Source of the DNA: a virus
Taxonomy: Duplodnaviria; Heunggongvirae; Uroviricota; Caudoviricetes
Length of the DNA stretch: 46,405 nucleotides
Direction: 5' to 3' (one strand)
IMG/VR virus record: IMGVR_UViG_2687453454_000004
The position numbers and the translations under genes were made by a program. Position 1 is the stretch's first letter; each line of letters opens with the position of its first letter. The notes below the pieces were generated by a model. That model saw only the letters and a program-made list of their open reading frames with translations. It was not told where the DNA came from and did not search any database. This document shows, in pieces, positions 39,741 to 40,566 of this stretch.

Positions 39741-39819
39741 ATGTACCTCCGGTATACATATTACATGATTGAGATGAACCTTCAAGATACTTGTACCTTA
39801 TCGGTACAAAGGTTTTAAT
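39741..39819. promoter_or_regulatory. OR region: two operators with divergent PR and PRM
   Basis: O1 atgtacc-tcc-ggtatacat (39741-39759), O2 ttgtacc-ttatc-ggtacaa (39791-39809); PR minus strand TTGAAG-16-TAATAT; PRM plus strand TTGTAC-17-TTTAAT ending 7 nt before the cI ATG. Confidence 0.55.
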
Positions 39820-39825
39820 TTCTTT

Positions 39826-40500
39826 ATGAAAACAGTCCATGACATCCGGCGGTCTAACGCCAGAAAACTGAGAGATGGTGTTGGCGGGAATTCTTCCTTT
39901 GCCACCATGATTGATCGCGAGCCAACCCAGACCAGCAGGTTTATGGGAGATGGTGCAACTAAAAATATCGGTGACAGCATGGCACGGCACATCGAAAAAT
40001 GTTTCGACCTGCCTGTCGGATGGCTTGATCAAGAACACCAGACAACGAACATCACAAAAAAAACTGACGTTTCAATCACTAACAAACAAATAACGTTAGT
40101 CCCTGTCATATCATGGGTACAGGCCGGAGCATGGAAAGAAGTTGGCTATTCTGAGGTTGATTTGAGCACAGCAGAAACTTATCCCTGCCCTGTACCCTGT
40201 GGCGAAATGACTTATATCTTGCGGGTGATTGGTGATTCAATGATTGATGAGTACCGCCCGGGAGACATGATTTTTGTTGATCCTGAAGTCCCTGCCTGCC
40301 ACGGTGACGACGTTATTGCATTGATGCACGATACAGGCGAAACCACCTTCAAGCGGTTGATAGAAGATGGAACACAGCGTTATCTCAAAGCATTAAACCC
40401 AAACTGGCCTGAGCCTTACATTAAGATTAACGGTAATTGCTCTATAATTGGTACAGTGATTTTCTCAGGAAAACCAAGAAGATACATAATAAAGGCCTAA
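39826..40500 (+). CDS. cI: CI-type repressor (HTH plus S24 LexA-like autopeptidase domain)
   Basis: 224 aa; C-terminal S24 signature (GDSM Ser, KRL Lys). Confidence 0.9.
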   Translation: MKTVHDIRRSNARKLRDGVGGNSSFATMIDREPTQTSRFMGDGATKNIGDSMARHIEKCFDLPVGWLDQEHQTTNITKKTDVSITNKQITLVPVISWVQAGAWKEVGYSEVDLSTAETYPCPVPCGEMTYILRVIGDSMIDEYRPGDMIFVDPEVPACHGDDVIALMHDTGETTFKRLIEDGTQRYLKALNPNWPEPYIKINGNCSIIGTVIFSGKPRRYIIKA

Positions 40501-40511
40501 TCAATATTTAT

Positions 40512-40535
40512 AACCTGCTTCGGCAGGTTTTTTTA
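40512..40535 (+). terminator. Intrinsic terminator after cI
   Basis: aacctgc-ttcg-gcaggtt followed by T7. Confidence 0.6.
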
Positions 40536-40538
40536 TAC

Positions 40539-40566
40539 TTGACAATGTACCTTTGGGATACATAAT
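40539..40566 (+). promoter_or_regulatory. PL-like early-left promoter with overlapping operator OL
   Basis: TTGACA (40539-40544), 16-bp spacer, CATAAT (40561-40566); spacer contains atgtacc-ttt-gggatacat (40545-40563), near-identical to O1. Confidence 0.55.

What the first reader, a model, noticed from the sequence alone, without database searches (positions are those of the whole stretch)
39741..40566. Immunity switch with three related operators and divergent promoters
O1, O2 and OL share half-sites TGTACC/GGTA(T)ACA. O1 overlaps the -10 of the cro promoter, O2 overlaps the -35 of a leaderless cI promoter, and OL lies in the spacer of a near-consensus early-left promoter. That is a complete, self-consistent CI-controlled switch built from a different operator sequence than lambda.
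Basis: partly seen in the sequence, partly recalled or inferred. Interest (0 to 1): 0.4.

Follow-up and report, generated by a model that had tools for sequence, protein, structure and literature searches.

The report
e14/SfV-type phage immunity switch
This is the repressor/anti-repressor genetic switch of the common e14/SfV family of E. coli prophages. It is real and works like the lambda switch with its own operator sequence, but it is already annotated and present in about a quarter of E. coli genomes, so it is ordinary.

Summary
They mark the immunity region of the e14/SfV prophage family. CI is 221/224 aa identical to E. coli K-12 YmfK (CohE), and Cro is 65/66 identical to YmfT (CroE). 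The DNA is 96% identical to e14 and is found in 1323 of 5426 complete E. coli genomes. The SfV GenBank record already marks window 39741-39809 as 'putative operator region'.

Across about 28 genera, with CI identity falling from 99% to 42%, the half-sites TGTACC/GGTACA stay fixed at the same distances from the cI start. The 5-bp centres of O2 and OL1 vary freely, which is a classic protein footprint.

OR holds O1, a weaker middle site OM over the PR -35, and O2. OL holds OL1 and a weaker OL2 over the PL start.

The leaderless cI promoter is confirmed experimentally in K-12, where the ymfK transcription start is the A of the ATG. CI has the lambda-CI fold, an Ala-Gly cleavage site and a Ser/Lys dyad. 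No binding assay is known to me.

Novelty is low. By-catches: a P1-type C4/isrK antisense RNA module in the right operon, and a conserved, unannotated structured RNA as the first PL product.

The parts
39535..39735 (-). cro (66 aa, YdaS/HTH family; equals e14 YmfT/CroE, 65/66 aa identical)
39741..39759 (.). O1 operator, ATGTACC-TCCGG-TATACAT. It covers the last 2 nt of the PR -10, the PR start and the cro SD (GGAGG on the minus strand).
   Evidence: half-sites 1.70 bits; the spacer is conserved because it is the SD
39758..39785 (-). PR: -35 TTGAAG (39785-39780), 16-nt spacer, -10 TAATAT (39763-39758). Predicted start is near 39751.
   Evidence: read from the sequence. The TTG of the -35 and the hexamer position are conserved in relatives. 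Below the scan's threshold (8/12). The transcription start is not measured.
39774..39792 (.). OM, a weaker middle operator, ATGAACC-TTCAA-GATACTT. It is centred on the PR -35, at -43 from the cI transcription start. It abuts O2 (17 bp centre to centre).
   Evidence: half-sites 1.58 bits; a full TGTACC left half in the Erwinia, Proteus and Halomonadaceae relatives
39791..39809 (.). O2 operator, a perfect palindrome TTGTACC-TTATC-GGTACAA. Its left half is the PRM -35.
   Evidence: half-sites 1.85 bits against 0.30 for the spacer; 25 different spacers in 30 loci
39791..39826 (+). PRM: -35 TTGTAC (39791-96), 17-nt spacer, -10 TTTAAT (39814-19), +1 = A of the cI ATG (39826). The mRNA is leaderless.
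   Evidence: TnTAAT lies 6-7 nt before the ATG in 25/30 relatives, none has an SD. The e14 ymfK transcription start has a 0-nt leader (PMC4681348).
39826..40500 (+). cI (224 aa): helical N-terminal DNA-binding domain, S24 LexA-like C-terminal domain, A100-G101 cleavage site, S138/K176 dyad. Equals e14 YmfK/CohE (221/224 aa identical).
40512..40536 (+). Intrinsic terminator ending the cI transcript just before PL
   Evidence: annotated in SfV and Ayreon
40539..40566 (+). PL: TTGACA-16-CATAAT (11/12), reading away from cI
   Evidence: invariant in 26 relatives; annotated 'promoter' in phage Ayreon
40545..40563 (.). OL1 operator, ATGTACC-TTTGG-GATACAT, filling the PL spacer
   Evidence: half-sites 1.92 bits against 0.41 for the spacer
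40565..40583 (.). OL2, a weaker operator, ATGTATC-TAAAA-GAAACAC, over the PL start, 20 bp centre to centre from OL1
   Evidence: left half conserved in most relatives; absent in about 6 lineages; 1.09 bits
38940..39503 (-). CII-like regulator (Pfam Phage_CP76; 89% identical to e14 YmfL), second gene of the PR operon

Best explanation
This is the immunity region of an e14/SfV-type lambdoid prophage.

A lambda-CI-like repressor (the K-12 YmfK/CohE type) binds as dimers to 17-19-bp operators of consensus (A/T)TGTACC-N5-GGTACA(A/T).
- At OR, O1 blocks the PR start site and the cro ribosome-binding site, and OM blocks the PR -35.
- O2 overlaps the -35 of the leaderless cI promoter PRM, so high CI (or Cro) shuts cI off. 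This gives negative autoregulation, with O2 in the OR3-like position.
- OM lies at -43 from the PRM start, the position from which lambda CI at OR2 activates PRM.
- At OL, OL1 in the spacer and OL2 at the start site block PL.
- Cro (the YmfT/CroE type) is expected to use the same sites to turn PRM off in lytic growth.
- DNA damage would relieve repression through RecA-stimulated self-cleavage of CI at A100-G101, using S138/K176.

Shown: the site positions and their conservation, the protein family and fold, and the leaderless PRM start in e14.
Inferred: binding itself, the order of site occupancy, activation from OM, cooperativity, OL-OR looping and cleavage.
For: Identity with known regions:
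- SfV, cdtI, Stx2c and Ayreon phages at 95-98%.
- The SfV 'putative operator region' equals window 39741-39809.
- e14 of K-12 at 96% nt, with CI 221/224 and Cro 65/66 aa identical.

Footprint: 30 loci with CI at 99-42% identity keep the half-sites at -84, -51 and -34 from the cI ATG and inside PL. The spacers of O2 and OL1 are almost random (0.30 and 0.41 bits against 1.85 and 1.92 for the half-sites). Deviations in one half-site are not compensated in the other, as expected for protein binding and not for RNA pairing.

CI protein: Peptidase_S24 at 1.4e-26. The C-terminal domain matches the lambda CI C-terminal domain by sequence. The AF2 model's best PDB hit is full-length lambda CI, 3BDN. 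AG, S and K are conserved.

Expression: the leaderless ymfK transcription start is published (PMC4681348). A -10-like TnTAAT lies 6-7 nt before the ATG and no relative has an SD. Genes of the e14 PL side (ymfJ, ymfH, xisE, intE) and PR side (ymfT, ymfL, ymfM, ymfN) fall in one iModulon with sulA and recN.
Against: No binding, footprinting or reporter data for CI or Cro on these sites were found. The SfV, e14 and phage 2851 papers are not in the held library.

The best palindrome (O2) lies on the PRM -35. If it is also the strongest CI site, simple lambda-like positive autoregulation cannot hold.

OM and O2 abut at 17 bp centre to centre, so simultaneous occupancy is uncertain.

The conservation of OM is partly explained by the PR -35 (TTG) in its centre. 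OL2 is missing in several relatives. PR scores only 8/12 to consensus and its start is not mapped. Pfam finds no HTH in the CI N-terminal domain, and the only similarity is a weak one to SPC32H Rep.
Confidence: 0.85

Rival explanations
1. Same switch, but with only four functional operators. OM would not be a repressor site. Its conservation would reflect only the PR -35 and neighbouring promoter constraints, and PRM would be purely negatively autoregulated through O2.
For: The invariant CAAG in OM's centre is the TTG of the PR -35. OM has 2-5 mismatches to the consensus in most relatives. It abuts O2, which argues against joint occupancy.
Against: OM's left half (ATGAACC) lies in the PR spacer, where promoters need no sequence. 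Yet it carries 1.3-2.0 bits per position and becomes a full TGTACC in the Erwinia, Proteus and Halomonadaceae relatives. The rest of the PR spacer is poorly conserved.
Confidence: 0.2
2. The palindromes act as RNA hairpins (terminator or attenuator structures) rather than as protein operators. O2 plus the downstream T-run was flagged as terminator-like.
For: One search lists 39791-39809 as a terminator-like stem-loop. The pattern 'conserved stem, variable loop' also fits a hairpin.
Against: The stems never show compensatory changes. The same half-site sequence is invariant in 28 genera, and deviations in one arm are uncompensated (for example TGTACC with GATACA). The same motif recurs at five promoter-overlapping positions, most without a T-run. 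O2 lies upstream of the mapped cI transcription start, so it is not in that RNA.
Confidence: 0.03
3. Immunity is set mainly by the C4-type antisense RNA module (P1 immI / P4-like) in the right operon, with the CI/operator system secondary.
For: Rfam finds a C4 antisense RNA (82.8 bits) and isrK (59 bits) at 38395-38583 on the minus strand. The C4 loop UCCGAUAAC is complementary to GUUAUCGGA, which overlaps the SD of the next ORF. The SfV record calls this ORF 'immunity region'.
Against: The RNA module lies downstream of PR, so it is itself under CI control. e14 of K-12 lacks it (ymfM follows ymfL) yet keeps the same CI, Cro and operators and stays repressed. In P1 the C4 system is an accessory layer that controls an antirepressor.
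Confidence: 0.05

Closest known systems
e14 cryptic prophage of E. coli K-12: YmfK (CohE) repressor, YmfT (CroE), YmfL
   Same: 96% nt identity over cro-OR-cI-terminator-PL. CI is 221/224, Cro 65/66 and YmfL 89% aa identical. The operators and promoter hexamers are the same. The ymfK mRNA is experimentally leaderless. It is described as an SOS-sensitive repressor (PMC8249747).
   Different: There are a few substitutions: the O1 right half is TATACA here and TGTACA in e14, the O2 spacer differs, and the OL2 left half is TGTATC here and TGTACC in e14. PL leads here into a ~270-nt conserved RNA, not the ~60-nt leader element plus ymfJ of e14. The right operon carries isrK/C4 here and ymfM in e14.
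Shigella phage SfV (also SfIV, cdtI phage, Stx2c phages, Ayreon, 2H10) cI/cro region
   Same: 95-98% identity. U82619 annotates 'putative operator region' at exactly window 39741-39809, plus the cI terminator. Ayreon annotates the PL promoter.
   Different: The annotation is a single undivided region with no individual sites, and no OL is marked. SfV diverges right after OL2.
Phage lambda OR/OL-CI-Cro switch
   Same: Shared features: divergent PRM/PR with a tripartite OR; a leaderless cI mRNA; cI, then a terminator, then OL/PL in the same orientation; the CI fold, Ala-Gly site and Ser/Lys dyad; and one site at about -42/-43 from PRM.
   Different: - Operator sequence differs: 6-bp half-sites TGTACC with a free 5-bp centre.
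- OM and O2 abut at 17 bp, against 23-24 bp in lambda, and O1-OM is 33 bp.
- The best site lies on the PRM -35.
- There are only two OL sites.
- OL-OR distance is about 0.8 kb, against 2.4 kb.
- There is no N gene after PL.
- The CII-like protein belongs to the CP76 (phage 186 CII) family.
- Cro is YdaS-like.
Stx phage 933W early region
   Same: Three OR and two OL operators, as summarised in PMC8065619 citing Tyler et al. 2004.
   Different: The repressor and operator sequence are unrelated, and 933W has an N antiterminator.
Salmonella phage SPC32H Rep (PDB 5D50)
   Same: Weak sequence similarity of the N-terminal DNA-binding domain, residues 1-76, E about 5e-4. It is also a Foldseek hit.
   Different: By my recollection, Rep has no S24 domain and is inactivated by an antirepressor rather than by self-cleavage. 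Its operators were not compared.
P1/P7 immI (C4 antisense RNA-icd-ant), for the neighbouring module only
   Same: A C4 RNA family member with a loop complementary to the SD of the downstream ORF.
   Different: No ant homologue was identified downstream in this window. Here the module sits in a lambdoid PR operon.

Membership tests
Lambda-type CI repressor (HTH N-domain + LexA/S24 self-cleaving C-domain) | C-terminal S24 (LexA/UmuD/CI) domain | tested here: met
   Pfam PF00717 at 1.4e-26, residues 93-212. phmmer hit to the lambda CI C-terminal domain at 1.7e-9. Foldseek hit to 3BDN at 5.5e-9.
Lambda-type CI repressor (HTH N-domain + LexA/S24 self-cleaving C-domain) | Ala-Gly cleavage site and Ser/Lys catalytic dyad | tested here: met
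   A100-G101, S138 and K176 are present. S138 and K176 are conserved in the 24-sequence alignment. Residue 93 aligns with lambda residue 104, which puts A100 opposite lambda A111.
Lambda-type CI repressor (HTH N-domain + LexA/S24 self-cleaving C-domain) | N-terminal helix-turn-helix DNA-binding domain | tested here: inconclusive
   The AF2 model has four helices in residues 4-59 (pLDDT about 80), and the full-length alignment is to lambda CI. Pfam HTH_3 gives no hit. The only sequence similarity is a weak one to SPC32H Rep and CP-933P CI.
Lambda-type CI repressor (HTH N-domain + LexA/S24 self-cleaving C-domain) | Sequence-specific binding to the operators; RecA-stimulated cleavage | not testable with these tools
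   Needs EMSA or footprinting and cleavage assays. Indirect support only: the footprints and SOS co-regulation of e14 genes.
Lambdoid immunity-region architecture | Divergent cI and cro with multiple shared operators overlapping PR and PRM | tested here: met
Lambdoid immunity-region architecture | Leaderless cI mRNA from PRM | tested here: met
   Conserved -10 lies 6-7 nt before the ATG and there is no SD. The published transcription start for the near-identical e14 ymfK has a 0-nt leader.
Lambdoid immunity-region architecture | Second operator set (OL) on an early-left promoter beyond cI | tested here: met
   OL1 and OL2 lie on TTGACA-16-CATAAT
Lambdoid immunity-region architecture | N-type antiterminator gene as the first PL gene, with nut sites | tested here: not met
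   40584-41186 holds no conserved ORF. The 39-aa ORF is broken by indels in the P1 and phiV10 homologues. The SfIV paper also reports no N, cII or cIII in SfV-type phages (PMC3851460).
e14/SfV immunity group | Same repressor specificity (near-identical CI, Cro and operators) | tested here: met
P1-type C4 antisense RNA immunity module (neighbouring feature) | C4 RNA plus a complementary target over the RBS of the downstream gene | tested here: met
   RF01695 at 82.8 bits against a gathering score of 45. The loop UCCGAUAAC is complementary to GUUAUCGGA at 38359-38351, which overlaps the SD of the ORF starting at 38340.
P1-type C4 antisense RNA immunity module (neighbouring feature) | Antirepressor (ant) gene under its control | not tested
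   Downstream are a 77-aa ORF, a 78-aa ORF and a replication protein. The cdtI phage record has a 'putative antirepressor' at this position.

The most novel reading that the evidence does not exclude
The left arm of this switch does not drive an N-type antiterminator gene. Its first product would be a ~270-nt, very strongly conserved, non-coding and apparently structured RNA (window ~40596-40865). Homologues of this RNA lie in the C1-controlled ban operon of phage P1, next to tRNA-Arg in phiV10/epsilon15-like phages, and behind a different repressor in mEp390. It is annotated nowhere and is absent from Rfam 15. It is followed by an intrinsic terminator (41003-41050). It could be an undescribed phage RNA class that acts right after derepression, for example in read-through of that terminator or in a tRNA-linked function. 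A separate possibility concerns the abutting OM and O2 sites. They could bind repressor in a mutually exclusive way, giving a switch logic unlike lambda's.
Probability: 0.25. Interest if true: 0.6.

Novelty: already known. Interest (0 to 1): 0.15.

Why it matters
As an immunity switch it adds little. The locus is in E. coli K-12 itself (e14) and in about 24% of complete E. coli genomes, and the operator region is already flagged in GenBank.

Its practical value is threefold:
- It gives a precise five-site operator map, with consensus WTGTACC-N5-GGTACAW.
- It gives promoter assignments for a repressor (YmfK/CohE) that is still listed as 'putative' in K-12.
- The same immunity type controls Stx2c- and Cdt-converting phages, so the map is directly testable and relevant to toxin-phage induction.

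The by-catches (the PL-leader RNA and the C4/isrK module under a spurious-looking 'Ash' ORF) are more interesting than the finding itself.

Tried and rejected
- Chance: rejected.
- RNA-hairpin or terminator reading of O2: rejected, because there are no compensatory changes and O2 lies upstream of the mapped transcription start.
- Other copies of the motif in the window (5357, 12157, 33349, 40191): these lie inside coding regions at chance-level numbers and are not considered operators.
- LexA boxes in or near the switch: none. Perfect boxes occur only at 2768/2796, 31959 and 38825.
- Pfam HTH in the CI N-domain: no hit.
- Literature on binding assays: the SfV (Allison 2002), e14 (Mehta 2004) and phage 2851 (Strauch 2008) papers are not held. 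Keyword searches found no operator study. From memory only, the abstract of Mehta et al. 2004 says the e14 repressor, Cro and their binding sites were identified by similarity to SfV.
- N-like ORF in the PL leader: rejected.
- Rfam match for the PL leader: none, even at E<=5.
- Homology of either PL-leader element to the HK022 early region, which holds the put sites: none by blastn.
- tRNA genes in the window: none.

Full report
**What is there.** The stretch holds cro on the minus strand (39535-39735, 66 aa) and a 90-nt intergenic region. Next come cI on the plus strand (39826-40500, 224 aa) and a hairpin terminator (40512-40536). After that is a near-consensus promoter reading away from cI, TTGACA(40539)-16-CATAAT(40566).

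O1 is ATGTACC-TCCGG-TATACAT at 39741-59. O2 is TTGTACC-TTATC-GGTACAA at 39791-809. OL1 is ATGTACC-TTTGG-GATACAT at 40545-63.

With up to 2 mismatches to TGTACC-N5-GGTACA the 46-kb window has 5 hits against 1.2 expected, and 0 of 100 shuffles reach 5. Three of the five flank cI.

Two weaker sites of the same design were missed. OM (39774-92, TGAACC-N5-GATACT) lies between O1 and O2. OL2 (40565-83, TGTATC-N5-GAAACA) lies 20 bp from OL1.

**Promoter geometry.** The PRM -35 (TTGTAC) is the left half of O2. Its -10 (TTTAAT, 39814-19) ends 6 nt before the ATG, and no SD is present.

PR on the minus strand is TTGAAG(39785-80)-16-TAATAT(39763-58). O1 overlaps only 2 nt of that -10, then covers the start site and the cro SD, which forms O1's centre. 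OM is centred on the PR -35. OL1 fills the PL spacer and OL2 covers the PL start.

Relative to the cI start, O2 is centred at -26, OM at -43 and O1 at -76.

**It is a known locus.** Megablast finds the region at 95-98% in SfV, SfIV, cdtI phage, Stx2c phages, Ayreon and 2H10. The SfV record U82619 marks a 'putative operator region' that maps exactly to window 39741-39809. Ayreon marks the PL promoter.

In RefSeq E. coli the two genes are named ymfK and ymfT. The region occurs in 1323 of 5426 complete genomes. It is 96% identical to the e14 prophage of K-12 MG1655. CI is 221/224 aa identical to YmfK (CohE) and Cro is 65/66 identical to YmfT (CroE). The next gene is 89% identical to YmfL and belongs to Pfam Phage_CP76, the phage 186 CII family.

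**Comparative test of the operators.** CI homologues range from 88% down to about 40% identity with a conserved N-terminal domain. A scan of one genome per species returned loci from about 28 genera, including Atlantibacter, Klebsiella, Pantoea, Serratia, Erwinia, Edwardsiella, Proteus, Rosenbergiella, Symbiopectobacterium, Salinicola and Halomonas.

In 30 loci the three OR sites keep their distances from the cI ATG (about -84, -51 and -34). PL/OL1/OL2 is kept in 26.

Information content:

| Site | Half-sites (bits) | Spacer (bits) | Note |
|---|---|---|---|
| O2 | 1.85 | 0.30 | 25 different spacers |
| OL1 | 1.92 | 0.41 | |
| O1 | 1.70 | conserved | the spacer is the cro SD |
| OM | 1.58 | | |
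| OL2 | 1.09 | | lost in some lineages |

Departures in one half-site are not compensated in the other. This fits protein recognition, not RNA pairing. OM's left half lies in the PR spacer, where a promoter needs no sequence, and it becomes a full TGTACC in three distant groups. So I count it as an operator, with about 0.2 reserved for the rival view that it only reflects the -35.

**The proteins.** CI has an S24 domain (1.4e-26) and matches the lambda CI C-terminal domain by sequence. Its AF2 model (pLDDT 78) has full-length lambda repressor 3BDN as its best PDB match. A100-G101, S138 and K176 correspond to the lambda cleavage site and dyad.

The N-domain is helical, is not recognised by Pfam HTH models, and is only weakly similar to SPC32H Rep. 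Cro is a YdaS-type HTH protein.

**Experimental anchors from the literature.** Differential RNA-seq in K-12 lists ymfK among only five leaderless E. coli mRNAs. Its transcription start equals the first base of the start codon (PMC4681348, text and supplementary table).

The 'YmfT iModulon' groups PL-side genes (ymfJ, ymfH, xisE, intE) and PR-side genes (ymfT, ymfL, ymfM, ymfN) with sulA and recN. It is most active in a fur mutant and under peroxide (PMC10602906, PMC12132413). That is what one SOS-sensitive repressor acting on both promoters predicts.

I found no binding or footprinting study. The key SfV and e14 papers are not held.

**Mechanism, with shown and inferred steps.** Shown: site positions, conservation, protein family and the PRM start. 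Inferred:
- CI dimers at O1 and OM silence PR, and at OL1 and OL2 silence PL.
- O2 on the PRM -35 gives negative autoregulation.
- OM at -43 may stimulate PRM as lambda OR2 does.
- Cro uses the same sites.
- RecA-driven cleavage induces the prophage.

Open points:
- The best palindrome is on PRM.
- OM and O2 are only 17 bp apart centre to centre, so they may not be filled together.
- O1-OM at 33 bp and OL1-OL2 at 20 bp are on the same helical face, so they could bind cooperatively.
- OL and OR are about 0.8 kb apart, so looping is possible.

**What the 'complete switch' leaves out.**
1. Downstream of the CII-like gene, Rfam finds isrK (38507-38583) and a C4 antisense RNA (38395-38482). The C4 loop is complementary to the SD region of a 77-aa ORF starting at 38340.
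2. The 278-aa 'Ash / immunity region' ORF has its Pfam Phage_ASH hit exactly over these RNA genes, so the ORF is probably spurious.
3. PL is followed by 620 nt with no credible gene.

**By-catch in the PL leader.** Positions ~40596-40865 are almost invariant among 51 distinct relatives, while the flanks vary. They are non-coding, because indels relative to P1 and phiV10 break the only small ORF.

Homologues lie between trnI and ban in P1, P7 and D6. They also lie directly upstream of tRNA-Arg in phiV10/SPN9TCW-type phages, and behind a different repressor in mEp390.

RNAalifold gives a long irregular closing helix and terminal hairpins with compensatory changes. There is no Rfam match and no similarity to the HK022 early region.

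After this element come a variable cassette, a 13-bp terminator hairpin (41003-41050) and a 90-nt hairpin (z = -7.3), all before the first ORF at 41187. e14, SfV and others carry a different 60-nt conserved leader element with a covarying stem.

**Verdict.** The switch is the already annotated e14/SfV immunity region, so novelty and interest are low. The neighbouring RNAs are the more promising leads.

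Noticed in passing
window 40596-40865 (+); homologues at L165 2501-2685 (P1), L166 2001-2245 (phiV10), L287-L290: The first ~270 nt of the PL transcript are almost invariant among 51 relatives and are non-coding. They fold into a multi-helix structure with some compensatory changes. Homologues lie in the P1 ban operon (after trnI), upstream of tRNA-Arg in Uetakevirus phages, and behind another repressor in mEp390. It is unannotated everywhere, has no Rfam 15 hit and shows no similarity to the HK022 early region.
   Followed up: partly
window 38395-38583 (-), ORF 38107-38943 (-): Rfam finds isrK (59 bits) and a C4 antisense RNA (82.8 bits) inside the 278-aa ORF that SfV calls 'immunity region'. 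The Pfam Phage_ASH hit (aa 117-210) coincides with these RNA genes, so the ORF and perhaps the Pfam family may be a translation artefact. The C4 loop UCCGAUAAC is complementary to GUUAUCGGA (38359-38351), which overlaps the SD of a 77-aa ORF (ATG at 38340), and to GUUAUCGG inside isrK.
   Followed up: partly
window 40866-41146 (+): A variable cassette (40866-40980) is replaced by unrelated sequence in sister phages. It is followed by a conserved intrinsic terminator (13-bp stem, 41003-41043, then a U-run) and a 90-nt near-perfect hairpin (41048-41140, z = -7.3). This ~190-nt block precedes the first early-left ORF (41187) in several genera, even where the rest of the leader differs.
   Followed up: partly
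related loci: L164 (K-12 e14, reverse strand), L001 ~3670-3760 (SfV), L084 ~2744-2830, L087-L098, L103: e14, SfV, SfII, ST64B, ZF40, mEp237 and others carry a ~60-nt conserved PL-leader element at the same place: CAGGCAGGACGCCCACGAAGTAGCCGCC-[5-bp stem]-GGCRTAYGAA..-[stem']-GATGATTCG. Three stem pairs show compensatory changes. It occurs with several different repressors, is unannotated in 49 phage records and is not in Rfam.
   Followed up: partly
window 2768-2783, 2796-2811, ORF 2826-3074 (+): Two perfect LexA boxes in tandem (CTGTTTATCCATACAG and CTGTATACAAATACAG) overlap a TTGACA promoter. They sit in front of a DinI-like 82-aa ORF, directly after the integrase gene (1668-2765). This is an SOS-controlled cargo gene that could modulate RecA-dependent CI cleavage.
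   Followed up: no
window 39505-39511 and 39529-39535 (+): A direct repeat GTTCTGT, spaced 24 nt, lies in the short cro-ymfL intergenic region. It could be a binding site for the CII-like protein at a PRE-like promoter reading towards cI. Conservation was not checked.
   Followed up: no
L111-L114 (Salinicola, Halomonas, Phytohalomonas): These distant CI relatives (42-51% identity) keep all three OR sites, with OM and O2 overlapping by 1 bp. They have no terminator/PL/OL block after cI, so the left operator set is not universal in the family.
   Followed up: no
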